Below, one piece after another: positions 6,007 to 37,688 of a stretch of 38,273 bases of DNA. The stretch spans positions 1 through 38,273 of IMG/VR virus record IMGVR_UViG_3300045988_043012; one strand, written 5' to 3'. The notes under the pieces are model-generated. The model saw nothing but the letters and a program-made list of their open reading frames with translations, had not been told where the DNA came from and made no database searches. Source of the DNA: a virus. The position numbers and the translations under genes were made by a program. Position 1 is the first letter of the stretch, and every line of letters starts with the position of its first letter.

Positions 6007-6038
6007 AAAAGCCGTGTCCGATTCGGACACGGCTTTTT
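6007..6038 (+). terminator. Rho-independent terminator built on palindrome copy 1
   Basis: AAAAGCCGTGTCCGATTCGGACACGGCTTTTT, a perfect stem followed by a T-run. Confidence 0.85.
6016..6028. repeat. GTCCGAWTCGGAC palindrome copy 1
   Basis: GTGTCCGATTCGGACAC, inside the terminator. Confidence 0.95.
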
Positions 6039-6069
6039 GAAAATATTTTGCTTTTTTTGCTTTTCTCTC

Positions 6070-6098
6070 TTGACACACCACCAAATTGGTGGTATTAT
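6070..6098 (+). promoter_or_regulatory. SigA-type promoter with a 17-bp palindrome in the spacer
   Basis: TTGACA at 6070-6075, 17-nt spacer, TGgTATTAT with -10 at 6093-6098. The spacer contains ACCACCAA-A-TTGGTGGT. Confidence 0.7.
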
Positions 6099-6136
6099 AA
6101 TAACAACAAGAGGGCACAGCCCAGGAGGAAAATAAA

Positions 6137-6409
6137 ATGAAAATTACTGATGGAAAGAAAACCGTAGAGATCAAGATCCAGCGCTGGAATGGTTCCGGAT
6201 ACGATCCGGACTGGAGCCGCGATTATTTTACCGCCGGTTCCCTGCCCTATGATGAGGAAACTGATACTTATACCGTTGAGGATGTTGATTATTGCATCGA
6301 AATGGCCAACAACAGCACCTGCGAAGATGGCGCTTGCATCAAATATAACGAGGACGGAGTCCTTGTCCCTGACGAAGATATGGTCGTCTTTGTTGATGAA
6401 CTGAATTAA
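6137..6409 (+). CDS. Highly acidic small protein (90 aa)
   Basis: AGGAGG RBS. By my count about 22 D/E versus 7 K/R. Contains DEETDTYTVEDVDYCIEM and VPDEDMVVFVDELN. Confidence 0.75.
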   Translation: MKITDGKKTVEIKIQRWNGSGYDPDWSRDYFTAGSLPYDEETDTYTVEDVDYCIEMANNSTCEDGACIKYNEDGVLVPDEDMVVFVDELN

Positions 6410-6422
6410 GGAGGGATATACC

Positions 6423-6761
6423 ATGACGGACAAACAGTTTAGCACCCTTTTGGGTGGCGCACTGGCGGACCAAGATCGGGATATGTACGTATCAGACTGG
6501 GCACTATCTGACATCTGGGGAAATCCGGAAGGCGCTGACATCCCGGATGATCGGATCCAGGCCTTGGGAGCGTTGTGGGATGTGGCTCATATTACGATCC
6601 GCGAGATCAGGGCAGCCACTGGCTTGTCTCAGGTTGCTTTTGCCCAGCGCTTCTGTATCCCGCGCCGAACGGTGGAGAATTGGGAATCCGGGGCAAGCAC
6701 TTGTCCGGACTATCTGCGGATTTTGTTGGCGCAAGCCGTAGGGCTGTATACGCGGAGCTAA
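6423..6761 (+). CDS. HTH (XRE/antitoxin-like) DNA-binding protein
   Basis: AAGGAGGG RBS. C-terminal HTH IREIRAATGLSQVAFAQRFCIPRRTVENWESG. Confidence 0.75.
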   Translation: MTDKQFSTLLGGALADQDRDMYVSDWALSDIWGNPEGADIPDDRIQALGALWDVAHITIREIRAATGLSQVAFAQRFCIPRRTVENWESGASTCPDYLRILLAQAVGLYTRS

Positions 6762-6774
6762 ATATATAAAAAGA

Positions 6775-6802
6775 GCCGTGTCCGAATCGGACACGGCTTT
6801 TT
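6775..6802. terminator. Bidirectional terminator built on palindrome copy 2
   Basis: GCCGTGTCCGAATCGGACACGGC stem, flanked by an A-rich run on the left and TTTTTG on the right. Sits between convergent genes. Confidence 0.85.
6780..6792. repeat. GTCCGAWTCGGAC palindrome copy 2
   Basis: GTGTCCGAATCGGACAC, inside the terminator. Confidence 0.95.
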
Positions 6803-6804
6803 GT

Positions 6805-7041
6805 TTACCCCTGCATATCATCCGCGATCTTGGCGTAGGCACGCCGCCGGATCTTGGCAAGGCCGTCTACGCTGACGTGGAGCAGCGCCGCCGCCTGTAG
6901 GCAGCTCTGGCCGTGGACGTCCACCGCCAGCACCGCCGCCTCCTCGTCAGGCGGCAAGCCTACCAGCCGGACGGCCTGCGCCGCCCGGGCCGGGGCCATC
7001 GATGACAACAGCGCCCGGATCTCTCGGTTTGTTTTTTCCAT
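6805..7041 (-). CDS. Sigma-70 region-4-like small HTH protein
   Basis: 78 aa. LQAAALLHVSVDGLAKIRRRAYAKI resembles a region 4.2 HTH. Weak RBS. A much stronger SD plus ATG at 7093 is out of frame (see findings). Confidence 0.5.
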   Translation of the reverse strand: MEKTNREIRALLSSMAPARAAQAVRLVGLPPDEEAAVLAVDVHGQSCLQAAALLHVSVDGLAKIRRRAYAKIADDMQG

Positions 7042-7114
7042 GGGTTTTCCAGACTTGCAGAGCGCGGATTAACCGCGTGGATGTTGTTGCCATCTTCTGG
7101 CCCTCCTTTCGGTT

Positions 7115-8505: not shown

Positions 8506-8547
8506 AATATGTCCCCTTTCAAATTTCGGTTGATTATTCAACCGGTT

Positions 8548-12596: not shown

Positions 12597-12964
12597 GCCT
12601 CCTCCATGGTGATCCGGAAGCCCTTACCCCATCGGACGGAGCCGGGCACCGGCGGGATGCTGACCTCCTCCACCGTGGGCATGAAGGTGGCCGTCCGGAC
12701 GGCGTTGTCCTTGGGCTCAAAGTAGGTGAGCTGCACGTAGTTCTTCAGCACCGCCGTCAGCAGCGCCGCCAGCTGCGGCCCCTGCTGGTCATTCACCGTC
12801 ACAGTGACCCGGGTCTTGATGGCCAGCAGGTCTCGGGGCTGTAAGCCGCTGAGCCGCAGGGCCGCGTTGGAGCCCTCCCGGTACACATAACCCACGGAGT
12901 ACTGCCAGCGGTTGACGTAGTCACTGAAATCCACGCCGTCTACGATATAGGGTGGCCGTGTCAT
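12593..12964 (-). CDS. Tail component (distal-tail position)
   Basis: 123 aa, 4-nt overlaps with both neighbours, positioned directly after the tape measure gene. Confidence 0.6.
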   Translation of the reverse strand: MTRPPYIVDGVDFSDYVNRWQYSVGYVYREGSNAALRLSGLQPRDLLAIKTRVTVTVNDQQGPQLAALLTAVLKNYVQLTYFEPKDNAVRTATFMPTVEEVSIPPVPGSVRWGKGFRITMEEA

Positions 12965-14754
12965 CGGCTGCCTCCTCTCCCCGCCAGAGAGACGCCCCGG
13001 CGGTTGTCCTCTGCGATGCGGTACTTGTATTCCTTCCGCGCGAAGGTGGCGCCGTCAATGGTCAGCTCCACCGGGATCGTCAGATCGTAGACCTTGGGCG
13101 TGCCGCCGCTGCCGCCGGTGTCCGAATCGGACAAGCCCCGGCTACTCCGCCGATTGCCGCCCAGCGTCCGCCCCGCCGCCATGGCGCTGCGGAGGAAGCT
13201 GGCCTCGCCGGAGGTCAGCACCGCCTCGCCCTGGTGCAGCTCTGCCACATAGCCGTCAAAGGGGACGTAGTCCAGCCCGTCGGCGTGGGAGCCGTTAATG
13301 GGGCTGAGCTTCCAGCCCCGCTTGAGGGCTTCCTCGCGGGAAATTTTTGATGCCCGAACAAAAGTTCCGGCTTGCTGCATCTGGCGGGCCTTGTCATAGT
13401 CAATTTCATTTCCATTTACCAGTCCGTTCGCCTGATAATCAGCCAAATTGTATTGACTATCAATGTTTTGGAATGCTTCTTGCTGTAGTTGCTCATGAGA
13501 TTTTAGCAAGTCTCCAATTTTTTCAATTACGGAAGAAATAGCGCTGACGGCAGTCGCAGCCCAGTCCACATAAACAGATCCGAACTCAATCAAGAAATTT
13601 GATGCGGGTTGTAATGCTTCGCCAAGCCGGGCAAGCGATTCATTCATCGTCTCTTGAGCGCTATTAGCAGCAATGATGTCCTGGTTATTCTCCACCCACG
13701 CCTGCCCGGTGGCCTGTAGGCCCTGCTCTGATAGCTGCGTCAGCACCAGATTGGCCCGCTCGGTAGTATCGGCGCAGGCCGCCAGACGCTCATTGAACTC
13801 GTCCTCGCTGGTGCCTGCCCAGTTGAGGGCGTCCGCAAAGACGCCGGTGACCTTTCCTACCTGCACCGTCTCATTGATGCTCTCGGATAGACTGTCGATT
13901 GGAATGGAGTCGCCGTAGGTAGCCCATGCGCCGATGGCCTGCTCCATGATGGTCCGCAGGTTTTCCTGGCTCAGCCCCAACGCCTGAAGGTTGGCGGTAG
14001 CCGTGGCGGCCTTCTGCGTGTCGCCCAGTACTGCCTGAAACTTTTTGTAGATCTCCGTGGTCTGCTCCTGGGTGTAACCGGCCTGCTTGCTGGAGACCTC
14101 CAGCGTCCCTAAAATGGTCCGGTACTCCTTCGTGGACTCCGTGATGTTGATGATGCCGTCCGCCAGAGCCTTGGCCCCGGCCACAGCAGCACCGCCCACC
14201 AGCAGCCCCTTCATGGAACCCAGAGCCGCCACAACGCCGTTGATGTCGCCGCCCTTGACCGCCTCGCCCAGCTGGCCAAAGGCCTCTTTGAGCTGGCCCA
14301 TGCCGTCGGAGCCTTCATCTCCGGCGTCCTTGACAGCCTTGCCGAATTCGTCGATGCTGGACGCCGTACCGTTTGCGGATTGGGCGGCCTCATCCAGATA
14401 CTTGTCGGTGTTCTTCAGCTCCCGGTCGAACTTGATTAAATCTATTGTGGCATAGTTCAACTGTTTCTGATATTTCAAAACAATGTCACTGTTTTCGTCA
14501 TATTCCTTTTTTGCGCTTTCCAGCATTTGTGCCAGACTGCGGACCTTTTCTTTCTGCTGGTCATACTGCTGCTGTAAAATGGCCTGCTTGCGCCGCAGCG
14601 CTTCCGCGCTGTTGGCCTGGCCGTCAAACTCGGCGGAGACTTTCGCCATCTCGGACTTCATTGCAGCCAAATTGTTATTGACCGCTTTAATTTGCTTCCG
14701 GAATTCGGCTTCATTTTTAATTGTGAGTTCAAGTCCAATAAACCTAGTTGCCAT
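12961..14754 (-). CDS. Tape measure protein
   Basis: 597 aa. Coiled-coil N-terminus, long helical body, positioned between the chaperone and distal tail genes. Confidence 0.85.
   Translation of the reverse strand: MATRFIGLELTIKNEAEFRKQIKAVNNNLAAMKSEMAKVSAEFDGQANSAEALRRKQAILQQQYDQQKEKVRSLAQMLESAKKEYDENSDIVLKYQKQLNYATIDLIKFDRELKNTDKYLDEAAQSANGTASSIDEFGKAVKDAGDEGSDGMGQLKEAFGQLGEAVKGGDINGVVAALGSMKGLLVGGAAVAGAKALADGIINITESTKEYRTILGTLEVSSKQAGYTQEQTTEIYKKFQAVLGDTQKAATATANLQALGLSQENLRTIMEQAIGAWATYGDSIPIDSLSESINETVQVGKVTGVFADALNWAGTSEDEFNERLAACADTTERANLVLTQLSEQGLQATGQAWVENNQDIIAANSAQETMNESLARLGEALQPASNFLIEFGSVYVDWAATAVSAISSVIEKIGDLLKSHEQLQQEAFQNIDSQYNLADYQANGLVNGNEIDYDKARQMQQAGTFVRASKISREEALKRGWKLSPINGSHADGLDYVPFDGYVAELHQGEAVLTSGEASFLRSAMAAGRTLGGNRRSSRGLSDSDTGGSGGTPKVYDLTIPVELTIDGATFARKEYKYRIAEDNRRGVSLAGRGGSR
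13120..13132. repeat. GTCCGAWTCGGAC palindrome copy 3
   Basis: GTGTCCGAATCGGACAA, inside the TMP gene, encoding SDSD. Confidence 0.95.
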
Positions 14755-17282: not shown

Positions 17283-17609
17283 TTAGCCCTCCGTGTCCGA
17301 ATCGGACCGCACCGGCTCCGTCAGCTTCAGCTGGTTGATCCGCCTCCGGAAGGCCGGGTTGTCTGCAAACGCCTTGTCGGCAGTCTGGATGCCCCGGTTG
17401 TCCCAGGCGTCCAGCACCAGCGCCAGAATGCAGGTGTTGTACTGGGGCAGGCGGGCGGAACCGGCCTCCGGCTCCGCCACGCCCGCGTTGCGCATGTAGC
17501 TGACGGCGTCCGCATGGAAACCCTCCAGCAGGCTCAGGTCCTCCGGCGTGGGATCGTCGATTCGGCAGTAGCTCAGGATGCTGGCCTGCCGGTCACTAAA
17601 CGCCGCCAT
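17283..17609 (-). CDS. gp6-like head-tail connector
   Basis: 108 aa, directly downstream of the capsid gene. YCRIDD...DLSLLEGF pattern. Confidence 0.7.
   Translation of the reverse strand: MAAFSDRQASILSYCRIDDPTPEDLSLLEGFHADAVSYMRNAGVAEPEAGSARLPQYNTCILALVLDAWDNRGIQTADKAFADNPAFRRRINQLKLTEPVRSDSDTEG
17295..17307. repeat. GTCCGAWTCGGAC palindrome copy 4
   Basis: GTGTCCGAATCGGACCG, in the last 8 codons of the connector gene (SDSDTEG stop). Confidence 0.95.
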
Positions 17610-18863: not shown

Positions 18864-18879
18864 GTTTTGCTACCTCCGT

Positions 18880-21090: not shown

Positions 21091-21105
21091 GCGGTCTCCT
21101 TTCCG

Positions 21106-21118
21106 GTCCGAATCGGAC
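21106..21118. repeat. GTCCGAWTCGGAC palindrome copy 5
   Basis: CGGTCCGAATCGGACCG, intergenic, 5 nt after the TerL stop and 16 nt before the next ATG. Confidence 0.95.
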
Positions 21119-21122
21119 CGCG

Positions 21123-24846: not shown

Positions 24847-24876
24847 GCTGATCCTCCTGTGATACCCGGCGCACAC

Positions 24877-25491
24877 GGCGACCCTCGCATGGCAGCCAGG
24901 GCCGCCGCAGGAGGATCAAACCCGCTGCGGCGCGAACGCCGCCGTGTGCGTCGGGGAAATGTGTCCGATTCGGACCGTGCCGCCCCACCGCGTCTACGTC
25001 AATACCCCGCGCATCCAGCGCAGGCCTTCGGCGCAGGCAGGGCGGCAGCTCCGGCTCATGACCCGGCCTCCGTGGTAGGTCACGGAGACCGGAAGGGAAG
25101 AAAGGATGAATACCGGCACAGGGGCCGGATCACAAGCCGGAGAAAACAAAAAGGCAAGGGCCGACGCGCACCGGTCTCCGGTACGTGCTGACTCTTGCCT
25201 TTCAGGCTTTTGGTCTATGCCATGTGATTCAATTCCCGCTGCGCGCTCGCAGCGTTTTGTGGCTTTTCGCTGCGCTCCCGCAGCGCCCTGGCCTCGTTGG
25301 TTTGCCTTGCCGGACTGCCGCCGAATCTTCGCCGAGATCTCCCGTGGGGAAAAAATCCCGCACGGAGGGGGGCCCGCGGTATTTCCGGCAGCGGTGAAAA
25401 CTTCAACAGGCCGGGGGGGAGGGTGCAAGGAACCCCGCAGGCGCGGGCCTGGGCTTCCGTGCGCCCAAGCGTTCGCCGATTTCCGCCGCAA
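24877..25491. other. 615-bp untranslated hairpin-dense spacer (candidate cos/packaging or RNA element)
   Basis: Only R/P/G-rich junk ORFs. Contains palindrome copy 6, tandem CGCTGCG..CGCAGCG hairpins (25237-25285), inverted repeats CGGAGACCGG/CCGGTCTCCG (25083-25092 and 25171-25180) and AAGGCAAG/CTTGCCTT. Confidence 0.5.
24963..24975. repeat. GTCCGAWTCGGAC palindrome copy 6
   Basis: GTGTCCGATTCGGACCG, intergenic, about 120 nt upstream of the ParB-MTase start. Confidence 0.95.
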
Positions 25492-27219: not shown

Positions 27220-27222
27220 GCC

Positions 27223-30055: not shown

Positions 30056-30567
30056 TTCATCTCCAGCGGTTCCGGTAGCGGCATCCAGTGCGTGACGGCG
30101 ATATCGGATCTGTCCCCAATGCCGATATGGACAGACCATGCCACCCTTTCAGGAGCGCACCAGCCCATATAGACACCCCATCTTTCGTGCCAATACGCGA
30201 CAACAAGGACATCGCTACGATCCTCCGGCAGCCGCTCCGTCACCGGGATCCACCGCCGTTCAAGCAGCTCCGCGCTCTCCTTGGTCACCAGCGCAGCCGC
30301 TTCCCGCAGTTGCTCGTTCTGCCCCCGCAGCTTCTCAATCTCCTGCTGGAGCGCCGCGATGTGGGTGCTCTGGTTGGCGATCCGGTCGGCTGCGGCAAGC
30401 CCCACCGCGTCAACATCGCAGGAGAGCCACTCCGTCAAATTGACTTTTCCCGCCAGATCTTCCGGGACCGGCTCCGTTTTGTAAAACGGACATTTCTTGC
30501 AGTCGCCCATTGGCCCGCCTGCTGTTGAAACGCATCTTAAGGCATTTACGAGTTCTTGATCTCTCAA
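30052..30567 (-). CDS. DUF551-domain protein
   Basis: C-terminal WIPVTERLPE...VTHWMPLPEP pattern. N-terminal Cys motif and coiled coil. Confidence 0.7.
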   Translation of the reverse strand: MRDQELVNALRCVSTAGGPMGDCKKCPFYKTEPVPEDLAGKVNLTEWLSCDVDAVGLAAADRIANQSTHIAALQQEIEKLRGQNEQLREAAALVTKESAELLERRWIPVTERLPEDRSDVLVVAYWHERWGVYMGWCAPERVAWSVHIGIGDRSDIAVTHWMPLPEPLEMK

Positions 30568-30962
30568 AACGGCAGCTCTCCTTCCTCATCTTCCGGGATC
30601 TCCCGGAAGTCCCCTGACGCAGGCGGCGTGTCCGATTCGGACCGCTTGCTGTCTCCGAAATACACATGCTCCGCCACCACTTCGGCGGAGCGCCGGTTGT
30701 TTCCGTCCTTGTCCTTCCAGTCCCGGAGCTGCAAGCGGCCCTCCACCACGGCCATGCGGCCCTTGGTGAAAAACTTGCTCACGAAGTCCGCCGTGGAGCG
30801 CCACGCCACGATGTCCACGAAGTCCGTCTCCTTCTCGCCGGACTGGCCCTTGTAGTCCCGGTCAACCGCCAGAGAGAAGGACGCCACGGCGGTTCCGTTT
30901 CCGGTGTGCCGGAGCTCCGGGTCGCGGGTCAGACGGCCCATCAGTACGATATGATTCAGCAT
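30564..30962 (-). CDS. ssb: Single-stranded DNA-binding protein
   Basis: Start at 30962 (MLNHIVLMGRLTRDPELR). OB-fold pattern and acidic tail EDEEGELPF. Confidence 0.9.
   Translation of the reverse strand: MLNHIVLMGRLTRDPELRHTGNGTAVASFSLAVDRDYKGQSGEKETDFVDIVAWRSTADFVSKFFTKGRMAVVEGRLQLRDWKDKDGNNRRSAEVVAEHVYFGDSKRSESDTPPASGDFREIPEDEEGELPF
30629..30641. repeat. GTCCGAWTCGGAC palindrome copy 7
   Basis: GTGTCCGATTCGGACCG, inside the disordered SSB tail (SESD). Confidence 0.95.
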
Positions 30963-31171
30963 GATTTGTCTCCTTTTTTCCAGCGGCCCGGCATATAGCG
31001 TCGCCGCCTGTCCTTGATATACTCTACCATGTCCTCCCGCTCTCTGTAGGACGGCCTGGCCGCCAGCTCCGCCTTGTGGATATTCTCGTAGTCTGCCCAC
31101 TTGGGGCAGACCGCCGGGTCATGGCACCCGGCCCGGCGATCAGGGCAGTTCAGGCACGGCGGCGCGGTCAT
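30956..31171 (-). CDS. Hypothetical Cys-rich protein (71 aa)
   Basis: ATGA-coupled start at 31171 (MTAPPCLNCPDRRAGCHDPAVCPKW). Confidence 0.55.
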   Translation of the reverse strand: MTAPPCLNCPDRRAGCHDPAVCPKWADYENIHKAELAARPSYREREDMVEYIKDRRRRYMPGRWKKGDKSC

Positions 31172-31284
31172 AAGGCCACGCCCTTTGCCGTCACCGTCAG
31201 CAGGATCACGGCAGCCACGGCGGCTGCCAAAGCCAGCACCGGGAGGACCCGGCTCCGGCGCTTCCCGCGCCCTGTGTATCTCAT
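31168..31284 (-). CDS. Small membrane protein (38 aa)
   Basis: Not in the track. AAGGAG RBS. ATGA overlaps at both ends. Product MRYTGRGKRRSRVLPVLALAAAVAAVILLTVTAKGVAL. Confidence 0.5.
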   Translation of the reverse strand: MRYTGRGKRRSRVLPVLALAAAVAAVILLTVTAKGVAL

Positions 31285-32774
31285 GTCTCCACTCCTTTCC
31301 CTGCCGCTGGTACAGGCGGCAGCCGCATCCACCAGGCCACGGGGGCCTGTGCCTCAATGCCGCCCGGCATCATCCAGTGTTGGCCATCCCAGTCAAAAAA
31401 CCGTTTCAGCAGCGTTCCGTCACCCAGGTCCACATAGGCCGCAAACTCGCCCGGCTCCGCCGGGTTGGTGCTGCCGGGCATCCATCCGGCGATCATCAGC
31501 TGGCCCTCCGGCAGCGTCGGCGGTGTCAACTCATCCGTCAGGCCCACGATGTAGTCGGCGGAACAGTGTAGCGCCCGGGCGGACTTGGCAATGTTACTAA
31601 GGTTATCCGGGGCAAGATCGTTTGTGTAGATACGATATTCATCAAACTCCCCAGCGGCCAGCTCGCGGAGATGGCCCGCAGTATAAGAACCCCCGTATCT
31701 GGTCTGAACAGCGAAGGCATTGTCCGGTATTCCGGCGGCGTCCGCCGCTCTGGCCAATCGGGCGGCGCTGGCCTGAATTTCCTTCTCAAGTTTCCGCATT
31801 TGCTTGTCCTCAGCCGCCTTTTTTGCGACTTTCTTCTCAGCCAATGCCTCCTTGCGCTTGGCCTTTGCTTTGCTGCAAGCCTCATCGCAGGGATAATATG
31901 TTGCTGTTCCCTGAGAGCATTCCAGACAGCAGGTCTGGCCGCCGCAGACATCGCAGCCGCAGCACTCCGCGTCATGCCGAAGGAAAGCGTCTCCCCGCTT
32001 GCACTCCTTGCCGTCCGGGCAGGTCAGGCGCGGCTCCCAGCGGTAGCCCCTGTCCTTGTAAAGCCGCAGCAGCTTCTCCAGCGTGGAGCCCGTGGGCAGC
32101 TGAGGAAATACTCCGGAAATCCGCATCTGCATATCCGCCGGGAACTGGGCCAGCGCATAGGCCGCCTGCTCCGGCATCTTCCCGCCGTCCCACGCGGGGC
32201 GAAGATTAGACAGCAGATGCTCCCGGATCACCTTGATCCGGGCCAGCTTGGAGCCGTGAGTGTTGCAGGCGGCAGCCACCACGTCCCGCATCCGGCCCTC
32301 CGGGAACTCAAAACCGTCCTCCTTCAGCTGATACAGCAGCGCCTCCACACGCTCCGCCTGCTCGCCGATCTCTGCGCTGGTGAGCTTGCGGGTGGAGCTG
32401 TTGGCGAAGATCAACCGAAGCTCCTGAAGCGCCGGGGAGGCGTTGTCCGTATCCCGGATGCAGGGGACCCGGCGGAACTGGTCCAGTCCCTTTTTCACAA
32501 GCTGAGCCAAAGCGGCCCTGCGCCGGTGGCCGCTGACGATGGTGAACCGTCCGCCCTCACCGGCCCGCACCCGGATAGGCTGCTGCAAGCCGCACATCTG
32601 GATGTTGTCCGCCAACTCGTCAATGTCCGTCAGATGGTAAAAATTCCGCTCGTCGCCGTCCAGCAGGCCGATGTCGATGTACTCGATCTGCTCCGGGCCG
32701 GTGGTGTTCAGCTCTGCCACACCGGCCAGCTGCTCACCCAGCACGTCCATCACGTTAAATTTCCGTTTTTCCAT
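31281..32774 (-). CDS. parB: ParB/Spo0J-family protein with a long Cys-rich and DUF551-like C-terminal extension
   Basis: ParB N-domain (IVSGHRRRAALAQL). GGGAGGTG RBS. Start lies 3 nt after the parA stop. Confidence 0.8.
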   Translation of the reverse strand: MEKRKFNVMDVLGEQLAGVAELNTTGPEQIEYIDIGLLDGDERNFYHLTDIDELADNIQMCGLQQPIRVRAGEGGRFTIVSGHRRRAALAQLVKKGLDQFRRVPCIRDTDNASPALQELRLIFANSSTRKLTSAEIGEQAERVEALLYQLKEDGFEFPEGRMRDVVAAACNTHGSKLARIKVIREHLLSNLRPAWDGGKMPEQAAYALAQFPADMQMRISGVFPQLPTGSTLEKLLRLYKDRGYRWEPRLTCPDGKECKRGDAFLRHDAECCGCDVCGGQTCCLECSQGTATYYPCDEACSKAKAKRKEALAEKKVAKKAAEDKQMRKLEKEIQASAARLARAADAAGIPDNAFAVQTRYGGSYTAGHLRELAAGEFDEYRIYTNDLAPDNLSNIAKSARALHCSADYIVGLTDELTPPTLPEGQLMIAGWMPGSTNPAEPGEFAAYVDLGDGTLLKRFFDWDGQHWMMPGGIEAQAPVAWWMRLPPVPAAGKGVET

Positions 32775-32776
32775 CC

Positions 32777-33550
32777 TCAGCACCTCCCGGAGATCTCTTT
32801 CACCAGCGCGGCGTAGTCCTTGCTGGCCGCGCAGTAGGGACGGGCCACCGGCAGCGGCACCTTTTGGAAGGTGGCGCTGGGCACAGCCTTGGAGAACCGG
32901 ATCACCGTCTCAAACACCGGAAGCGCCCCGCCCCGGATGGCCGCGAGGGCCTCCTTCTCGTCGGCCATGTGGGTGAACTGCGTCACCAGCACGCCCAGCA
33001 CCGACAACCGGGGGTTGATGGCCCGCATGTTCTGGAGCTGCTCCGCCAGATTGGCCATGCCGCCGGTGGAGTAGTAGTCCAGCCGGATGGGGATAATCAC
33101 CTCGTCCGCAGCGGCCAGCGCCGCCGTACAGGCCGCCGACAGCGCCGGCGGGCAGTCAATCAGGATGAGATCGTAGGCGTTGTCTTGGTCCGCGTCCTCC
33201 TCGATGGCGTCCCGCAGATCCGCGATGGCCCGCTGCATCCGGCCTACGCCGCTCTGGGCCATGTGCCGGTCAGCCGCCAGCAGGTTAATGTCGGACGGGA
33301 TCAGGTCGATGCCGTCATAGACGGTGGGCGTCACGAACTCCGGATAGTATCCGGCGCCCTCGGTCAGGAGGGCCAGCGTGTCCGCGCCCTCCTCCGCGTC
33401 GATGCCAAAGGACATGCTCAGGTTGCCCTGACTGTCCCCGTCGATCAGCAGGATCCGTTTGCCCTGCTTCGCCAGCAGATACGCCAGCGTGGCGGTTGTG
33501 ACGGTCTTGCCGACGCCGCCCTTGAAATTCAATACCGCAATAGTTTTCAT
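32777..33550 (-). CDS. parA: ParA/Soj-type partition ATPase
   Basis: Deviant Walker A (NFKGGVGKT), IDGDSQGN, IIDCPP. Confidence 0.9.
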   Translation of the reverse strand: MKTIAVLNFKGGVGKTVTTATLAYLLAKQGKRILLIDGDSQGNLSMSFGIDAEEGADTLALLTEGAGYYPEFVTPTVYDGIDLIPSDINLLAADRHMAQSGVGRMQRAIADLRDAIEEDADQDNAYDLILIDCPPALSAACTAALAAADEVIIPIRLDYYSTGGMANLAEQLQNMRAINPRLSVLGVLVTQFTHMADEKEALAAIRGGALPVFETVIRFSKAVPSATFQKVPLPVARPYCAASKDYAALVKEISGRC

Positions 33551-33577: not shown

Positions 33578-33820
33578 TCAGACCGCAGTGCTTACGGCCT
33601 TAAAATGCGGCTGGCCCCGCCAGTTCTTCGGCTGCGGTTCCAGTTTCGGCCAGAAGGCCTCCCGCCAGTTGTAGCCGGTGATGGGACTGCGGAACTCCAC
33701 CGTGTAATAGCGCCCCGCCGGGTGGATGTAGATCACCCGCGCCGGGATCGGCCCGATGGTGCCAAGCCCGCTGGTCGCCTCCAGTGTCGGCTCGATGCTC
33801 AAGATATCTCCGATCTTCAT
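33578..33820 (-). CDS. Hypothetical protein (80 aa)
   Basis: ATGA-coupled to the dnaB stop. Confidence 0.6.
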   Translation of the reverse strand: MKIGDILSIEPTLEATSGLGTIGPIPARVIYIHPAGRYYTVEFRSPITGYNWREAFWPKLEPQPKNWRGQPHFKAVSTAV

Positions 33821-35247
33821 GCTTTCTCCCCCTTGTTCTCGTCATCCCACGGCGTCTCGGTGTCCGCCGGGGCCTCGGTCCAGTCGGACCCGTCGCCCCA
33901 GAAGCTCACCTGCCGGGGCCGCTGTCTGGCCGCTTTCCCTACGGCCTGATATTGCCGCATGACGGAGCGGCCGTCCGGGTTGACCAGAAGCGAAAACGTC
34001 TGCTTCGGCCCGTCGAATACCATGTACCACGCCCCACGGGGGCCTTCCTTGTTCTTCGCGATTTTCAGGACCCGGTGCTTGTTCTGGTCCAGCTCCGGGC
34101 CGTCCTTGGCCTTGGGGTCCGGACGGTAGACCATGAAGATCATGTCCGCGTCCTGCTCAAACTGGCCGGACTCCTTCAGGTCGCTCATCACCGGCGCCCG
34201 CCATCCGGCGGCCTTGTCCGGCCGGCTCAGCTGGGCCAGTTCCACCACCAGCGTCCCGGATTTCTGGGCGAAGGTGTGCAGCTGCCGGGACACCGCCGCC
34301 ATCTGCTCACTGCGGGGTGCCCGCTGGTCCATCTCCGGGGTGACCAGCTGGATGTAATCCAGAAAGATCACGTCAAAGCCATACGCCTGGCTGATATTCT
34401 GGATGGTGGTGGCCGTCATGCCGGATGCCTCCACCACCGTCAGGCCCCGGCCCGCCATGTCGGCGGATTTCTCGGCAAACGCCCGCCAGTCATCCTCGGT
34501 CAGGCTGCGGGTCTTGATCCTGTCGAAGTCAATCTGCACCACGGCAGCCATAAGCCGGTCCCGGATCTTGGCCTTGTCCGTCTCGAGACTGAAAAAGCCG
34601 ACCCGGTGATCCTGCGCCATCCGGTAGGCCATCTGCAAGGCCAGCGCCGTCTTGCCGTCGGAGGGGTAGCCGCCGATGATGACCACATCTCCCGGCTTGG
34701 TGTAGGTCCGGCCCTTGAGGAAGTCCAGACCGTAGTCGATGTACACCGGCGCCGGGGCGTCCGGATCCTGCGCTTGGCAGAAGTCCTCGGTCATCTGCGC
34801 CATGGTCCACGCCTCCACGCTGGTGCCCTCGCTCAGCTCCCGGGACAGCTTGGCGCACACCGGCCGGCAGTCCTCCACCGTCTGAGCCGCGCTCAGAGCG
34901 TCGGCAAACTCGTGGATCCGGCGGACGGTGGCCTGCGACCGCATGGCCTCTGCGTAGGCCTCCCAGTTGGCAGCGGTGGGCGTGATCTCCACCAGCTCCG
35001 CCATGTACCGGGAGTAGTCCGGGCCGATCTTGTCCCGGATGGTCACGGCGTCCGGTGTGACGCCCGCCCGGAACAGCGCCCGGGCCGCCTGAAAGATCAG
35101 CCGGTTGGCGGGATTGTAAAAATCAGCGTCCCGCACCCGGGACAGCAGGGGCCGCACCACATCCGGGTCTACCAGCATGGCCCCGATCACCGCCCGCTCC
35201 GCGTCCAGCAGGTGATCCAGCTTTTCGTCCGTTCTCACGTTTCCCAT
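33817..35247 (-). CDS. dnaB: Replicative DNA helicase (DnaB-type)
   Basis: 476 aa. ERAVIGAML N-domain, Walker A GGYPSDGKT, LVVELAQLSR. Confidence 0.92.
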   Translation of the reverse strand: MGNVRTDEKLDHLLDAERAVIGAMLVDPDVVRPLLSRVRDADFYNPANRLIFQAARALFRAGVTPDAVTIRDKIGPDYSRYMAELVEITPTAANWEAYAEAMRSQATVRRIHEFADALSAAQTVEDCRPVCAKLSRELSEGTSVEAWTMAQMTEDFCQAQDPDAPAPVYIDYGLDFLKGRTYTKPGDVVIIGGYPSDGKTALALQMAYRMAQDHRVGFFSLETDKAKIRDRLMAAVVQIDFDRIKTRSLTEDDWRAFAEKSADMAGRGLTVVEASGMTATTIQNISQAYGFDVIFLDYIQLVTPEMDQRAPRSEQMAAVSRQLHTFAQKSGTLVVELAQLSRPDKAAGWRAPVMSDLKESGQFEQDADMIFMVYRPDPKAKDGPELDQNKHRVLKIAKNKEGPRGAWYMVFDGPKQTFSLLVNPDGRSVMRQYQAVGKAARQRPRQVSFWGDGSDWTEAPADTETPWDDENKGEKA

Positions 35248-35951
35248 CCGCAGACCTCCCGGCTCTCACCGCCCCGGTCCGAATCGGACCGCCCCGGCAG
35301 CTCGTCCTCCCACCGGCGGCCGTTGAGCCATGTGGCGGGATAGGGGATGTACGCCCCGCCGTCCCGGGTCCACTGCTCACAGGCTAACTGAGCCTTCAAC
35401 GCCCGGAGGATGGTCTCCACCAGCGCCCCGTCTGGCTTCAGCTTCGCCCACGCCCGGCGGGCCTTCTGTTTATCCACATGCCGTGGGTAAGCAGCCCAGA
35501 AGGTGTCGAACGCCGGGTCCCCTGGGGGGACTATAGGGGGGTTATATTTAATCTTTACTGGGTTATAATCTTTATTGGGTTGTGTCGGGAAAGCCGTCAA
35601 CGGCTTTTCCCGTTGCCGGGTTTCACCGTTGTCGGTGTTTTCCGACAACGGTGGCGCAAAGTCCTGTAAAACGTAGACGTTGCCGCCAAAAGTGCCATTT
35701 TCCTTGTGCCCCTGTTCCCGCAGCAGATATCCCACCTGCTCCAATTGCGCCAAAATGCGACGGATCTTATCTTTGCCCGTCTTGGTGCTGACCGCCAGAC
35801 CGGAAACCGTAAATTTCCAGTCCGGCGGGCGGGACATGATATAGGCAAACAGACCCTTTGCTTCCAGCGGCAGACGGTCATCCTTGACCATTGAGTTATA
35901 CAGGACCGTGAAGCCGTCTCCACGGCCAGACCTGATCTCATGCTCTGCCAT
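35235..35951 (-). CDS. Replisome organizer / replication initiator (wHTH N-domain)
   Basis: 238 aa. N-terminal wHTH-like region (GLFAYIMSRPPDWKFTVSGLA), low-complexity linker, C-terminal Trp-rich domain. Overlaps the dnaB start. Confidence 0.7.
   Translation of the reverse strand: MAEHEIRSGRGDGFTVLYNSMVKDDRLPLEAKGLFAYIMSRPPDWKFTVSGLAVSTKTGKDKIRRILAQLEQVGYLLREQGHKENGTFGGNVYVLQDFAPPLSENTDNGETRQREKPLTAFPTQPNKDYNPVKIKYNPPIVPPGDPAFDTFWAAYPRHVDKQKARRAWAKLKPDGALVETILRALKAQLACEQWTRDGGAYIPYPATWLNGRRWEDELPGRSDSDRGGESREVCGWET
35277..35289. repeat. GTCCGAWTCGGAC palindrome copy 8
   Basis: CGGTCCGAATCGGACCG, in the organizer C-terminal tail (SDSD), 30 nt upstream of the dnaB ATG. Confidence 0.95.
35549..35653. 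promoter_or_regulatory. Candidate origin: tandem 17-bp iterons plus two hairpins inside the organizer ORF
   Basis: TAATCTTTACTGGGTTA at 35549-35565 and TAATCTTTATTGGGTTG at 35566-35582. Hairpin GGGAAAGCCG/CGGCTTTTCCC at 35587-35611. Perfect 12-bp stem CACCGTTGTCGG/CCGACAACGGTG at 35624-35653. Confidence 0.6.
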
Positions 35952-36046
35952 ATTGCCCCCTTATCTTTCCATCCGATCCACGATCCGCAGCGGGATTGCC
36001 GCCACCGTCGCCACGCCGACGATCATGAAAAACATTGCCCAACCGG

Positions 36047-36625
36047 TCACAGGGATGCGCCCCCTTCCCGGCAAAAATTAGGGCTTGCGTGCAGCGTGGA
36101 CCTTGTGCTATAATTGATACATCCAGTGGTTGATCCAATACCACACACTTTTCCCCCTGAACGCTCTGAGGTTGCCGCCTCGGGGCGTTCTTTTTTTGCG
36201 CCTGAGTAGATCACCTGATAGATGGCCGCCATGGTATCCCTCAGCTCCAGAACGATGTCATCAAACTCCGGCCGCTCAGCCTCGTCGATCACGCCGTCCT
36301 CCGCGATCCGGAGCAGGGCGTCCAGCCGGCCCGTCGCGTCTTGCAGACGGTTCCGAAGGGCGATGCTTGCCATGGGCAGCGGCCTTGGCGTCACCTCCGG
36401 CATCACGCCCAGCGTGTCCGTGGCCTGCGCGTGCTCCAATGCCAGCCATGGGCAGCTGTACGCCTCCACCATCTTGGCCACCGTCTCGTCCTTGGGCACC
36501 GTCTTTCCGCCCTCGTACTGTTTCAGGCTTTCCGGTGACAGCCCAAGCAGCTCCGCTGCCCGTTCTTGGCTCATTCCGGTACTCAGCCTTGCCCTTTGGT
36601 ACAGATTAGGGCATCTCTTGTCCAT
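36047..36625 (-). CDS. XRE-family HTH protein (early regulator)
   Basis: Strong GGAAAGGAGGAAAAG RBS. HTH in ARLSTGMSQERAAELLGLSPESLKQYEGG. The C-terminal ~40 aa are of doubtful quality. Confidence 0.7.
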   Translation of the reverse strand: MDKRCPNLYQRARLSTGMSQERAAELLGLSPESLKQYEGGKTVPKDETVAKMVEAYSCPWLALEHAQATDTLGVMPEVTPRPLPMASIALRNRLQDATGRLDALLRIAEDGVIDEAERPEFDDIVLELRDTMAAIYQVIYSGAKKERPEAATSERSGGKVCGIGSTTGCINYSTRSTLHASPNFCREGGASL

Positions 36626-36646
36626 TGTCTTTTCCTCCTTTCCGCG

Positions 36647-36859
36647 CTACCATGTAACCATCCAACGTGCCAATGGTACAATGGGGATGATGTAGCGCTT
36701 CCCCACCTTCTTGGCCGGAAACTCGTCATTGTGGACCAGCGCGTCCCAGTCCAGCCCCAGCAGCTTGCAGGCCTGGTCCTTGCTCAAGACCTCTTGCTCC
36801 GGGAATTTCGCCTGTAAGGATTGCAGCTGATCCCGGAAGCTCTCACGCTCTCGTGCCAT
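36647..36859 (-). CDS. Excisionase/MerR-type HTH small protein
   Basis: ATG at 36859 after GGGAGGAG. LSKDQACKLLGLDWDALVHNDEFPAKKVGKRYIIP resembles Xis-type HTH_17. Confidence 0.6.
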   Translation of the reverse strand: MARERESFRDQLQSLQAKFPEQEVLSKDQACKLLGLDWDALVHNDEFPAKKVGKRYIIPIVPLARWMVTW

Positions 36860-36875
36860 GTCCGCTCCTCCCTTC

Positions 36876-37079
36876 TCACGCGCTCTCCGTCCGCTGGACA
36901 ATCTCCTCAATGGGGACGCCAAAGATCAGCGTCATGCGGAAAACTCTCTCCAGCTCCGGGGTCCGCTGGCCCAGCTCCCACTTGCTCACCGTGGGGACGG
37001 TGACGCCCAGCTGGTCAGCCAGCGCCTTCTGGGTCATACCGGCCGCCGTCCGCAGCTCCTTGACTCTGTTAACGATCAT
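36876..37079 (-). CDS. Cro-like XRE HTH repressor
   Basis: 67 aa. VKELRTAAGMTQKALADQLGVTVPTVSKWELG. Divergent from the cI-like gene. Confidence 0.8.
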   Translation of the reverse strand: MIVNRVKELRTAAGMTQKALADQLGVTVPTVSKWELGQRTPELERVFRMTLIFGVPIEEIVQRTESA

Positions 37080-37097
37080 AATTGCTCCTTTCCCGCC

Positions 37098-37126
37098 TTG
37101 ACGGCGTTGCCCCGGTGTGATATATT
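37098..37126 (+). promoter_or_regulatory. Rightward promoter toward the cI-like gene
   Basis: TTGACG at 37098-37103, 17-nt spacer, TGaTATATT with -10 at 37121-37126. Confidence 0.6.
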
Positions 37127-37155
37127 GTCCTTGGGGCTATGTCCTCTGTGGCTAT

Positions 37156-37184
37156 ATCATAAATCGCATTTTGGCATTTGTCAA
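37156..37184 (-). promoter_or_regulatory. Leftward promoter toward the cro-like gene
   Basis: On the minus strand, TTGACA (37184-37179), 17-nt spacer, TATGAT (37161-37156). Flanked by TTTGGCATTT repeats at 37169-37179 and 37233-37244 and an AATTGCAT tandem at 37183-37200. Confidence 0.65.
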
Positions 37185-37267
37185 TTGCATAAATTGCATT
37201 TTTGCGTTTTCGTATAGTTGCACAATTACCACTTTGGCATTTTGGCTATTATTTGGGGGTGATTCCG

Positions 37268-37594
37268 ATGGACGCCGTAGACCGTCTTTTTGCTTTGGTG
37301 GATGCAAAATACCGGGAGCAGAAGGACTTTGCCGCAGAAATTGGGGTAGATCCCGCACGCGTCAGCGAATGGAGAAATCGGAAGAGATCTTCATACACTC
37401 GGCATTTAACCAAAATAGCGGCAGCGTTGAACACATCTGCGGATTACATCTTGACCGGGAAAGAAGAAAAAAGCCCGGCTCCCGAAGGAGCCGGACTGAC
37501 GCAGGAATTTGCCCGGATTTTTGACCAGCTATCTCCGCAGGCTCAGAATGAGATTATTGCGGAGATGCTAAAGCGGAGACGGCAAGAGCCATGA
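37268..37594 (+). CDS. CI-like XRE HTH repressor
   Basis: ATG at 37268 after GGGGGTGA. HTH in QKDFAAEIGVDPARVSEWRNRK. 108 aa. Confidence 0.75.
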   Translation: MDAVDRLFALVDAKYREQKDFAAEIGVDPARVSEWRNRKRSSYTRHLTKIAAALNTSADYILTGKEEKSPAPEGAGLTQEFARIFDQLSPQAQNEIIAEMLKRRRQEP

Positions 37595-37688
37595 TCTCCG
37601 CTTGATCTGCGGGGGACAGAGATGCAAACAGGTCCAATGCGTATGTAGTGTCCGAATCGGACACGGTGCGGGTGGTCTGGCTGCTCAT
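37554..37688 (-). CDS. Small convergent ORF (44 aa) overlapping the cI-like 3' end
   Basis: GGAGG lies 7 nt before the ATG at 37688. Product MSSQTTRTVSDSDTTYALDLFASLSPADQAEIMALAVSALASPQ contains palindrome copy 9. Confidence 0.45.
   Translation of the reverse strand: MSSQTTRTVSDSDTTYALDLFASLSPADQAEIMALAVSALASPQ
37650..37662. repeat. GTCCGAWTCGGAC palindrome copy 9
   Basis: GTGTCCGAATCGGACAC, about 55 nt downstream of the cI-like stop. Confidence 0.95.

What the first reader, a model, noticed from the sequence alone, without database searches (positions are those of the whole stretch)
6016..37662. Nine dispersed copies of the palindrome GTCCGAWTCGGAC around the whole genome
Exact 13-bp cores lie at 6016, 6780, 13120, 17295, 21106, 24963, 30629, 35277 and 37650. 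Each extends to a 17-bp palindrome built from half-sites GTGTCCGA or CGGTCCGA. There are about 1.7e7 possible 12-mers, so far fewer than one copy is expected in 38 kb. Instead nine occur, spaced 0.8-6.5 kb around the circle. Two form terminator stems, two sit in intergenic spacers just upstream of starts, and five lie inside ORFs. No standard feature class explains this. The genome encodes ParA and two ParB-N-domain proteins. Dispersed 13-bp palindromes bound by a ParB-family protein are established for RK2 KorB (OB sites), and dispersed centromeres are established for phage-plasmid N15. My leading hypothesis is therefore a genome-wide ParB/KorB-like centromere or operator network. Alternatives are RNA hairpins acting in processing, stability or termination, or a methylation/restriction-related site, since the centre is GANTC.
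Basis: partly seen in the sequence, partly recalled or inferred. Interest (0 to 1): 0.85.

Follow-up and report, generated by a model that had tools for sequence, protein, structure and literature searches.

The report
Dispersed ParB binding sites in phage
A gut-bacterial virus carries nine evenly spread copies of a 17-letter palindrome that comparative evidence ties to its own ParB-type DNA-binding protein, revealing an undescribed phage and plasmid counterpart of known "many-site" ParB systems.

Summary
Nine exact GTCCGAWTCGGAC cores are present, no shuffle gave any, and no 1-2-mismatch copies exist. The unit is a 17-mer, GTG[T/C]CCGAWTCGG[A/G]CAC. The window is a circular ~38.15-kb temperate phage of gut Oscillospiraceae.

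The site belongs to the ParA/ParB module at 31281-33550, not to the second ParB-N protein.
- In 79 phage loci chosen only by homology to a distant ParB relative (27-53% GC), 50 carry the motif within 150 bp of the parB start. Most others carry a related palindrome there.
- Motif-selected loci from otherwise unrelated phages share only ParA/ParB with this window.
- The syntenic cultured phage Cormatin has one site, inside parB.
- Plasmid pCP13, with a homologous ParB, has seven dispersed GTGTCCCCSGGGGACAC copies.

The ParB model matches Noc, KorB and Spo0J.

In this phage the sites are spaced more evenly than chance. Coding copies always use one reading frame, in protein tails.

Binding, and partition versus silencing, remain untested. 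I could not show covariation between ParB residues and site variants. Neither motif string occurs in the searched literature. I class it as a new variant of a known kind.

The parts
6014..6030 (.). Site 1, GTGTCCGATTCGGACAC. A perfect 17-mer at the apex of a bidirectional terminator-like stem (6005-6039) after ORF 5684-5989(+).
6778..6794 (.). Site 2, GTGTCCGAATCGGACAC. A perfect 17-mer at the apex of a terminator-like stem (6774-6798), between the convergent genes 6423-6761(+) and 6805-7041(-).
13118..13134 (.). Site 3, GTGTCCGAATCGGACAA. Inside ORF 12961-14754(-), 159 bp from its stop, in reading frame 1.
   Evidence: frame from coordinates
17293..17309 (.). Site 4, GTGTCCGAATCGGACCG. It encodes the C-terminal tail of the head-tail adaptor-like ORF 17283-17609(-). 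The position is conserved in relatives down to 36% protein identity, as the T or the C variant.
21104..21120 (.). Site 5, CGGTCCGAATCGGACCG. Intergenic, between the terminase large subunit stop (21123) and the next gene start (21090). A relative (L624) has the variant GTGTCCAATTTGGACAC at the same place.
24961..24977 (.). Site 6, GTGTCCGATTCGGACCG. About 87-100 bp upstream of the ParB-N/methyltransferase-like gene 23443-24876(-), a position conserved in T-type relatives. It lies 4 nt from an Rfam DUF3800-VIII RNA match.
30628..30644 (.). Site 7, GTGTCCGATTCGGACCG. Inside the acidic C-terminal tail of the SSB gene 30564-31100(-), in frame 1 (R-S-E-S-D-T). The position is conserved in relatives.
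35275..35291 (.). Site 8, CGGTCCGAATCGGACCG. At the 3' end of the DnaD-like replication initiator gene 35235-35951(-), next to the DnaB start, in frame 1. It is conserved about 2.4 kb upstream of parB in relatives.
37648..37664 (.). Site 9, GTGTCCGAATCGGACAC. Intergenic, between the CI-like repressor gene 37202-37594(+) and ORF 37691-38131(+).
31281..32783 (-). ParB1, the proposed binder of the sites. It has a ParB/Srx N-domain with QPIRVR, SGHRRRAA and ANSxxR boxes, then an HTH domain, then a Cys-rich region, a coiled coil and a beta-rich C-terminal extension. The true start is probably at 32774.
32777..33550 (-). ParA, a Walker-type partition ATPase directly upstream of ParB1 and overlapping it.

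Best explanation
The 17-bp palindrome GTG(T/C)CCGAWTCGG(A/G)CAC is the cognate DNA site (parS-like) of the phage's ParB-family protein ParB1 (31281-32783), which is encoded just after a ParA ATPase.

In the wider family, one copy sits in the parA-parB spacer or in the first ~55 nt of parB. In this phage lineage that copy is gone. Nine copies are instead spread about every 4 kb around the 38-kb circle.

The copies sit wherever the sequence can be tolerated: intergenic spacers, terminator stems, and disordered protein tails. Coding copies are always in the frame that reads x-S-(E/D)-S-D-T.

Inferred mechanism, not shown here:
- ParB1 dimers load at each site through the HTH domain.
- Like ParB, Noc and KorB, they then close as nucleotide-dependent clamps and spread over neighbouring DNA.
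- Evenly spaced loading sites would therefore cover the whole genome.
- ParA acts on this complex to position or segregate extrachromosomal phage genomes, either after induction or in a carrier state.
- A KorB-like dampening of transcription is a possible second role.
For: - Shown, non-randomness. Nine exact copies against 0 in shuffles, and no degenerate copies.
- Shown, ParB1 fold. The AlphaFold model (pLDDT 77.7) matches the N-domain plus HTH of Noc 7nfu (TM 0.70), KorB 8qa9, Spo0J and ParB. It carries the GxRRxxA box and sits downstream of ParA.
- Shown, linkage from motif to ParB. Among 119 loci fetched by the motif, ParB1 (31) and ParA (28) are the window proteins found most often. Of the 34 such loci with ParA and/or ParB1, 24 share at most one other protein with the window.
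- Shown, linkage from ParB to motif. 79 loci were fetched only by homology to a distant ParB1 subfamily, in genomes of 27-53% GC. 56 carry the core, and 50 carry it within 150 bp of the parB start. Most of the remainder carry a related 17-mer at that place.
- Shown, embedded copies. There is a copy at +53/+56 of parB1 in relatives with 28-78% identity.
- Shown, cultured relatives. Cormatin has a single site, inside parB1. Saumur has one in the 35-bp parA-parB spacer plus two near copies.
- Shown, plasmid parallel. pCP13, with a homologous ParB, has GTGTCCCCSGGGGACAC seven times, dispersed and intergenic, one of them in the parA-parB spacer.
- Shown, selection at DNA level. The central base is A/T in 203 of 208 contexts, although in coding copies it is a synonymous-type third codon position in GC3-rich genes.
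- Shown, spacing. It is more even than random.
Against: - No binding data exist.
- In this window no site lies at the parA-parB junction. The nearest are 0.65 kb downstream and 2.5 kb upstream.
- The T and C variants, and the CCGA/CCAA/CCCC inner variants, do not track obvious changes in the ParB1 recognition helix.
- C-type ParB1 proteins are polyphyletic.
- Some relatives keep ParA/ParB1 with only one degenerate site in about 19 kb, so dispersal is not required.
- The phage has an integrase, and its cultured relatives are integrated prophages. A partition role is therefore not self-evident.
- ParB1 is just below Pfam's threshold (26.2 versus 26.3 bits) and well below the NCBIfam ParB cut-offs.
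- Host-chromosome density was tested on only about 10 kb.
Confidence: 0.65

Rival explanations
1. The palindromes act as RNA or single-stranded DNA hairpins in termination, mRNA 3'-end protection or processing. On this reading their link to ParB is incidental.
For: - Two copies form the apex of strong terminator-like stems.
- The bare 17-mer folds at -9.2 to -11.3 kcal/mol.
- Sites lie near gene ends.
- Variants keep the palindrome through paired changes.
Against: - A generic hairpin does not need an invariant sequence shared by genomes of 27% to 64% GC.
- Seven of nine copies lack a T-run.
- In context, the local fold is not better than shuffles for four non-terminator copies, z -1.4 to -2.2.
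- Hybrid T/C sites at the parB 5' end would give a C-A mismatch in the mRNA.
- Rfam has no family covering the sites.
- The gene-end bias is explained by tolerance, since coding copies lie in frame 1 in protein tails.
- The strong positional link to parB needs a separate explanation.
Confidence: 0.1
2. The sites are dispersed operators ('stoperators', as in mycobacteriophage L5) for the phage's CI-like or other HTH regulator, and they block transcription through the prophage.
For: The copies are dispersed at gene boundaries in all operons. The phage encodes several HTH proteins: 36047-36625, 37202-37594 and 6423-6761.
Against: - No copy lies between the divergent promoter-like sites at 37098-37184, where an immunity operator is expected.
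- The HTH regulators are found in only 1-7 of the 119 motif-selected loci, against 31 for ParB1.
- The motif occurs in phages that share no regulator with this one, and on plasmid relatives.
- The sites are palindromic, not oriented.
Confidence: 0.07
3. The sites are conserved module-boundary sequences that promote recombination between mosaic phages. They could possibly be cut or nicked by a ParB-like or HNH nuclease.
For: - Copies sit at gene and module boundaries.
- ParA can be 97-99% identical next to a ParB1 of 38% identity.
- Hybrid half-sites occur at the parB 5' copy.
Against: - The one recent exchange that could be mapped is the head module, 94% nucleotide identity between T and C phages. 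Its breakpoints are at 20863 and 17627, which are 243 and 330 bp away from the flanking sites.
- A 17-bp identity is short for homologous exchange.
Confidence: 0.05
4. The motif is a methylation- or restriction-related target centred on GANTC/GAWTC. It could, for example, be read by the ParB-N/methyltransferase-like protein 23443-24876 or by the phrog_757 methyltransferase 29016-29747.
For: - The centre is GAWTC.
- Two methyltransferase-like genes are present.
- GASTC is under-represented in the genome.
Against: - 30 other GAWTC sites lack the flanks, and GAWTC is not depleted: 39 observed on each strand count against 38 expected.
- Phages without the 23443-24876 homologue keep the sites.
- Sister variants at the same locus position have no GANTC.
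- A 17-bp specificity is far beyond known methyltransferase targets (established knowledge).
Confidence: 0.03

Closest known systems
KorB and its OB operators on IncP plasmid RK2
   Same: - A ParB-family protein is encoded next to a ParA-type ATPase.
- An odd-length palindrome with a free central base, OB being TTTAGCSGCTAAA (established knowledge), occurs about a dozen times around a 40-60 kb replicon.
- The ParB1 model aligns to KorB structures 8qa9 and 8qa8.
- The plasmid relative pCP13 has its copies in intergenic regions, like OB sites.
   Different: - There is no sequence-level membership, and the site is different.
- The host range is Firmicutes phages and plasmids.
- In the phage, most copies are inside operons or coding tails rather than at promoters.
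- No KorA-like partner was identified.
- The element is an integrating temperate phage.
Phage-plasmid N15 SopAB with four dispersed sopC centromere sites
   Same: A temperate phage carries a ParA/ParB-type system whose palindromic sites are scattered over the genome rather than clustered (established knowledge).
   Different: - N15 is a linear plasmid prophage without integration. This phage has a tyrosine integrase, and its cultured relatives are integrated prophages.
- There are nine sites rather than four.
- The ParB family and the site are unrelated to N15's.
Noc and its NBS sites in Bacillota
   Same: Noc gives the best structural match to ParB1, 7nfu with TM 0.70, and the best sequence hit in PDB. 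It is a ParB paralogue that binds dispersed palindromes in Firmicutes.
   Different: - Noc has no ParA partner and uses an N-terminal membrane-targeting helix (established knowledge).
- ParB1 is translationally coupled to ParA and has a 270-residue C-terminal extension.
- ParB1 scores 30 bits against a 315-bit cut-off for TIGR04285.
Canonical chromosomal or plasmid ParABS
   Same: - ParA plus a ParB with an N-terminal CTPase-type domain and an HTH.
- A palindromic site within or next to parB in most relatives, as with parS inside spo0J in B. subtilis (established knowledge).
   Different: - In this phage the parB-proximal copy is absent, and nine copies are spread evenly.
- ParB1 is below the curated thresholds of TIGR00180 (29.7 versus 58.45 bits).
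- Coding copies are embedded in a fixed frame.
Stoperators of mycobacteriophage L5 and Cluster A phages
   Same: Many copies of one short site lie at gene boundaries throughout a temperate phage genome.
   Different: L5 sites are asymmetric, oriented with transcription, and identical to the repressor's operator at the early promoter (established knowledge). Here the sites are palindromic, absent from the immunity switch, and linked to ParB rather than to a repressor.

Membership tests
Type I ParABS partition system | Walker-type ParA ATPase encoded with ParB | tested here: met
   The 32777-33550 product hits AAA_31 at 4e-44 and CbiA at 6e-22. Its NCBIfam ParA_partition score is 88 bits, below the 180-bit equivalog cut-off. 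The gene overlaps the parB1 start.
Type I ParABS partition system | ParB with an N-terminal ParB/Srx (CTPase-type) domain including the GxxRxxA arginine box | tested here: met
   SGHRRRAA aligns to GERRWRA of Noc. G82, R84 and R85 are invariant across 24 homologues. The Pfam ParB_N score is 26.2 bits against a 26.3 cut-off, which is borderline. Foldseek matches ParB, Noc and KorB at E 5e-8 to 1e-5.
Type I ParABS partition system | HTH DNA-binding domain following the N-domain | tested here: met
   The model has helices at 133-241. The Foldseek alignment to Noc, KorB and Spo0J spans about 225 columns, covering the N-domain plus the DNA-binding domain. The motif PGRxRDxVAxxxxxSxxxxAR is conserved across the family.
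Type I ParABS partition system | Palindromic parS next to or inside the parAB operon | tested here: inconclusive
   Not met in this window, where the nearest copies are at 30630 and 35277. Met in relatives: 50 of 79 ParB-selected loci, Cormatin, Saumur and pCP13.
Type I ParABS partition system | ParB binds parS specifically, and the system stabilises an extrachromosomal replicon | not testable with these tools
   This needs EMSA or ChIP and plasmid-stability assays.
KorB/OB-type global regulon | Many copies of one ParB-family site dispersed around the replicon | tested here: met
   Nine copies with gaps of 0.8-6.5 kb, more even than random. pCP13 has 7 perfect and 2 near copies.
KorB/OB-type global regulon | Sites positioned at or near promoters that they repress | tested here: not met
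   No site lies adjacent to the best promoter-like matches at 37098-37184, 4396-4424 and 6070-6098. The nearest is site 6016, about 40 bp upstream of the 6070 -35 hexamer. Most copies are inside operons. The promoter scan is consensus-only.
KorB/OB-type global regulon | KorA-like co-repressor partner | not tested
   No search was made for one.
N15-type dispersed centromere of a phage-plasmid | Prophage maintained as a plasmid, with no integration | tested here: not met
   A tyrosine integrase lies at 636-1670. Relatives sit within long bacterial contigs. Cormatin and Saumur were described as induced chromosomal prophages.
Noc/NBS | Orphan ParB paralogue without a ParA partner, reaching the curated Noc score | tested here: not met
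   ParA is adjacent. The TIGR04285 score is 30 bits against a cut-off of 315.
L5-type stoperators | Asymmetric sites identical to the immunity operator at the early promoter | tested here: not met
   The sites are palindromic, and none lies in the divergent promoter region at 37098-37184.

The most novel reading that the evidence does not exclude
ParB1 and its relatives form a Firmicutes-wide family of KorB-like sliding clamps on phages and conjugative plasmids such as pCP13. On this reading they load at evenly spaced GTGTCC..GGACAC palindromes and coat the whole mobile element. They would act as a genome-wide switch for silencing or organisation of an integrated prophage or plasmid, rather than only as a centromere. 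That would also explain why integrating phages keep a ParABS module.
Probability: 0.25. Interest if true: 0.8.

Novelty: new variant of a known kind. Interest (0 to 1): 0.62.

Why it matters
ParB proteins are now understood as CTP-gated DNA clamps, and KorB showed that such clamps can silence genes at long range from scattered loading sites. So far there are few examples, and they come mostly from Proteobacteria plasmids.

This finding adds the following:
- It defines the DNA site for a large, unannotated ParB family in gut Clostridia phages. Hundreds of contigs carry it, and the protein is annotated "hypothetical" in Cormatin. The family also includes the C. perfringens toxin-plasmid family pCP13.
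- Site number ranges from one to nine or more among close relatives, which is a natural experiment on what dispersal does.
- It raises a concrete question: why do integrating prophages keep ParABS?
- It gives direct reagents for testing. These are a 17-mer, two natural allelic variants, and cultured hosts (Flavonifractor plautii YL31 with Cormatin, E. clostridioformis YL32 with Saumur).
- The fixed-frame embedding of a DNA site in protein tails is a clean example of dual coding.

Tried and rejected
1. **Covariation between the T/C variant and ParB1.** Alignment columns that separate the types lie only in the residues encoded by the embedded site itself. Recognition helices are shared between types. 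C-type ParB1s are polyphyletic, though never more than 71% identical to a T-type one. With the CCAA, TTCAA and CCCC variants added, no clean specificity residue emerged. Result: inconclusive.

2. **Restriction avoidance as the driver of T to C.** TCCGA is only about 2-fold low in C-type phages and is not eliminated. Rejected.

3. **A search for a protein never shared between T and C phages.** Only portal, protease, capsid and an ASCH protein are shared at 90% identity or more. Everything else is 82% or less, so the test cannot single out a reader.

4. **Sites as recombination junctions.** The head-module breakpoints are not at sites.

5. **ParB2 as the binder.** It is absent from site-bearing relatives. 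Its AlphaFold model was too poor (pLDDT 53.6) for fold search. Its C-domain gave no PDB or NCBIfam match. The methyltransferase call rests on an invariant DNPPF motif and PHROG neighbours only.

6. **Locus-level 2x2 of ParB1 presence versus motif presence.** It is significant overall (P = 4e-6) but confounded, because many fetched pieces do not reach parB.

7. **Low-GC bacterial loci with the 17-mer.** These were Lachnospiraceae, C. puniceum and Selenomonadaceae. Neighbouring genes gave no clear picture.

9. **Profile of all ParB1 subfamilies.** It was too diverse for the locus finder.

10. **Literature search.** Searches for the motif strings found nothing relevant.

Full report
**Observation**

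The pattern GTCCGAWTCGGAC occurs nine times, at 6016, 6780, 13120, 17295, 21106, 24963, 30630, 35277 and 37650. None of 100 dinucleotide-preserving shuffles contained a single copy. Allowing two mismatches adds nothing, so this is a discrete set, not the top of a degenerate family within this genome.

The window ends in a 119-bp direct repeat of its start, so it is a circular assembly of about 38,154 bp at 59% GC. Flanks extend the core to a 17-mer with GT or CG on the left and AC or CG on the right in eight copies. Five copies are perfect 17-bp palindromes.

**What the genome is**

Domain scans give the following gene map:

| Feature | Coordinates |
|---|---|
| Tyrosine integrase | 636-1670(+) |
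| CI-like HTH | 37202-37594(+) |
| Second HTH regulator | 36047-36625(-) |
| DnaD-like initiator | 35235-35951(-) |
| DnaB helicase | 33817-35247(-) |
| ParA | 32777-33550(-) |
| ParB-N protein "ParB1" | 31281-32783(-) |
| SSB | 30564-31100(-) |
| Methyltransferase-like protein | 29016-29747(-) |
| Rep protein | 26229-26954(-) |
| HNH | 25492-25860(-) |
| Second ParB-N protein "ParB2" | 23443-24876(-) |
| Terminase small and large subunits, then head and tail genes | below 23340(-) |

- Divergent promoter-like sites at 37098-37184 mark the immunity switch.
- Close relatives come from human gut samples.
- Related prophages sit in Oscillibacter, Oscillospiraceae and Clostridium sp. CAG:413 assemblies.
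- The syntenic cultured relative is Flavonifractor phage Cormatin.

**Where the copies sit**

- Two copies crown terminator-like stems that flank a small promoter-plus-HTH-gene cassette.
- Three copies are intergenic and four lie in ORFs.
- All are close to gene ends, with a median of 33 bp against 144 bp for random points, P = 0.005.
- The gaps around the circle are more even than chance, P = 0.004 for the largest gap.
- All four coding copies are in the same frame relative to the palindrome. Orthologous copies in relatives show the same frame.
- The site reads (V/R)-S-(E/D)-S-D-T, or V-P-(E/D)-S-G-T in the C variant. It falls in the SSB acidic tail, the C-terminal tail of a head-tail adaptor-like protein, the N-terminal linker of ParB1 and the C-tail of ParA.

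I read the gene-end bias as tolerance. A fixed 17-mer can be embedded only in spacers or in disordered, acidic tails.

The central base is A or T in 203 of 208 distinct contexts. In coding copies it is the third position of a Glu or Asp codon, in genes whose GC3 is about 80%. That is selection on the nucleic acid, not on the peptide.

**Relatives and variants**

The 17-mer is widespread. At least 119 viral contigs carry the T form and at least 120 carry GTGCCCGAWTCGGGCAC, the C form.

Distinct contexts number as follows:

| Type | Contexts |
|---|---|
| T/T | 220 |
| C/C | 160 |
| T/C hybrids | 22 |
| Other | 9 |

- Genomes are nearly always of one type.
- Orthologous positions, for example the adaptor gene tail, are T in some phages and C in others.
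- T and C phages still exchange DNA. The portal-protease-capsid block is 94% identical between them, with breakpoints at 20863 and 17627, which are not at the sites.

**Which protein goes with the site**

Four lines of evidence point to the ParA/ParB1 module.

(a) Among the motif-selected T loci, ParB1 (31 of 119) and ParA (28) are the window proteins present most often. In 24 of the 34 loci that have either, at most one other window protein has a homologue. Otherwise unrelated phages therefore share just the motif and this module.

(b) In ParB1 homologues of 23-78% identity, a copy lies at +53/+56 of the gene or in the parA-parB spacer.

(c) The reverse test used 79 loci fetched only by homology to a distant ParB1 subfamily, in genomes of 27-53% GC.
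- 56 contain the core, and 50 have it within 150 bp of the parB start, typically 31-66 bp upstream.
- Most of the rest have a related 17-mer at that place: GTGTCCAAnTTGGACAC, GTGTTCAAnTTGAACAC or one-mismatch forms.
- In this set position 4 of the half-site is A or T, and often differs between the two halves. That position is therefore weakly constrained.

(d) Complete cultured genomes agree.
- Cormatin, which has no ParB2, has exactly one site, 50 nt into its parB1 homologue.
- Clostridium phage Saumur, an unrelated myovirus, has one in the 35-bp parA-parB spacer plus two near copies 6 and 12 kb away.
- A high-GC terminase relative, L624, carries the CCAA variant both near parB and directly after the terminase gene, the same place as window site 21106.

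The plasmid pCP13 of C. perfringens encodes a ParB 36% identical to the distant subfamily.
- It has GGTGTCCCCGGGGGACACC in its parA-parB spacer.
- It has seven perfect plus two near copies of GTGTCCCCSGGGGACAC spread around its 54 kb, in intergenic regions.
- This is not the 117-bp "putative parS" proposed for these plasmids (PMC4459074).

**ParB1 itself**

The AlphaFold model has pLDDT 77.7.
- It has an N-domain and a helical DNA-binding domain that Foldseek aligns to Noc (7nfu, TM 0.70), KorB (8qa9), Spo0J and ParB over about 225 columns.
- These are followed by a Cys-rich segment, a long helix and a beta-rich C-terminal domain.
- The boxes QPIRVR, SGHRRRAA and ANSxxR are conserved. From established ParB biochemistry they suggest nucleotide binding. 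The Glu of the usual ENxxR box is Ala here, so turnover may differ; this is inference.
- ParB1 scores below the curated ParB family thresholds.

**ParB2**

ParB2 is not needed for the sites.
- It is missing from Cormatin, from the L452 and L331 phages and from Saumur, all of which carry sites.
- Its C-terminal half has an invariant VVIDNPPFS motif. I infer a DNA methyltransferase fusion. The model was too poor to test this.

**What I could not show**

- No ParB1 residue tracks the T/C or inner-base variants.
- Some relatives keep ParA/ParB1 with only a decayed copy.
- The window itself lacks the parB-proximal copy.
- The phage integrates, and Cormatin and Saumur are induced chromosomal prophages (PMC10197239). 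The benefit of a partition module is therefore unclear.
- Host-chromosome density could be checked on only about 10 kb of flank, which held no sites. In 120 bacterial loci hit by a 15-mer scan, full palindromes were mostly in prophage-like Clostridia contexts.

**Rivals**

- **Hairpin function.** It explains the two terminator copies but not the sequence invariance across hosts or the link to parB. Local folds of four other copies are not better than shuffles, and Rfam has no family covering the sites.
- **Repressor "stoperator" network.** No copy lies at the immunity switch, and the regulators co-occur with the motif only weakly.
- **Methylation target.** Sister variants lack GANTC, and GAWTC frequency is normal.
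- **Recombination-boundary role.** The one mapped exchange does not support it.

**Comparison and novelty**

The system works like KorB/OB of RK2 and resembles the dispersed sopC sites of N15 and Noc/NBS. It is a member of none of these by sequence, site or lifestyle. Neither the motif strings nor the pCP13 palindrome occur in the searched literature. A 2025 survey of ParB-fold proteins notes many phage orphans but no such sites (PMC12704722).

I class it as a new variant of a known kind. It is a ParB-parS family of Firmicutes phages and plasmids in which the site has been multiplied and spread, here to nine evenly spaced copies, some written into protein tails.

**Verdict**

| Item | Assessment |
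|---|---|
| Observation | confirmed |
| Confidence that the 17-mer is the ParB1 site | about 0.65 |
| Function (partition versus genome-wide regulation) | open |
| Interest | 0.62 |

Noticed in passing
window 24979-25046 (- strand): There is an Rfam match to DUF3800-VIII RNA (RF03075), 54.7 bits against a gathering score of 40.2, E 1e-7. It ends 4 nt before site 24963. The overlapping ORF 24994-25491 has flat codon-position GC (0.65/0.63/0.65) and no family hit, so this stretch may be non-coding RNA rather than a gene.
   Followed up: no
window 23443-24876 (- strand): The second ParB-N protein has a C-terminal half with an invariant VVIDNPPFS motif (methyltransferase motif IV-like). It sits just upstream of the small terminase gene. 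It is probably a ParB-N/DNA methyltransferase fusion. Its AlphaFold model was poor (pLDDT 53.6), and the C-domain has no PDB, Pfam or NCBIfam match.
   Followed up: partly
L580/L581 = plasmid pCP13 NC_003042.1 (record positions 1701, 3516, 18492, 37854, 45174, 45228, 49934): There are seven perfect copies, plus two with 2 mismatches, of GTGTCCCCSGGGGACAC. They are dispersed in intergenic regions of this low-GC C. perfringens conjugative plasmid, and one lies in the parA-parB spacer. They are distinct from the 117-bp 'putative parS' in the literature.
   Followed up: partly
window 17627-20863: The portal-protease-capsid block is about 94% identical in nucleotides to phages that otherwise differ by 25-60% in protein sequence and carry the C variant of the motif (L385, L297, L290). 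This is a recent head-module exchange with sharp breakpoints at the capsid stop and about 50 bp inside the portal gene.
   Followed up: partly
window 6005-6798: This is a moron-like cassette. A strong promoter-like site (6070-6098, TTGACA-17-TATTAT with TG) and an HTH_3 gene (6423-6761) are bracketed by the two motif-bearing bidirectional terminators.
   Followed up: no
whole window: GASTC (GAGTC/GACTC) is under-represented. There are 17 sites against about 35 expected by a Markov model, or about 81 from base composition. GAWTC is at expectation. This may reflect avoidance of a host restriction enzyme.
   Followed up: no
window 1-119 and 38155-38273: There is a 119-bp terminal direct repeat, the signature of a circularly assembled complete genome of about 38,154 bp.
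   Followed up: yes
L477-L480, L465, L473, L484 (relatives): These phages have parA-parB1 but only a decayed embedded copy (GTACCCGAATCGGACAC or GTACCCGAATCGGATAC) and no other site in 13-20 kb. Close relatives carry T/C hybrid copies at the same position. The site network is therefore gained and lost quickly.
   Followed up: partly
L049, L047, L052, L042 (motif-selected viral loci): Pairs of perfect 17-mers lie 38-57 bp apart, either just upstream of a ribosome-binding site or as two in-frame VSDSDT repeats in a protein C-tail.
   Followed up: no
L578 = Flavonifractor phage Cormatin ON453905.1: The deposited annotation lists no integrase, and its ParB1 homologue (27019-28569) is labelled a hypothetical protein. 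Yet the phage was reported as an induced chromosomal prophage of F. plautii YL31.
   Followed up: no
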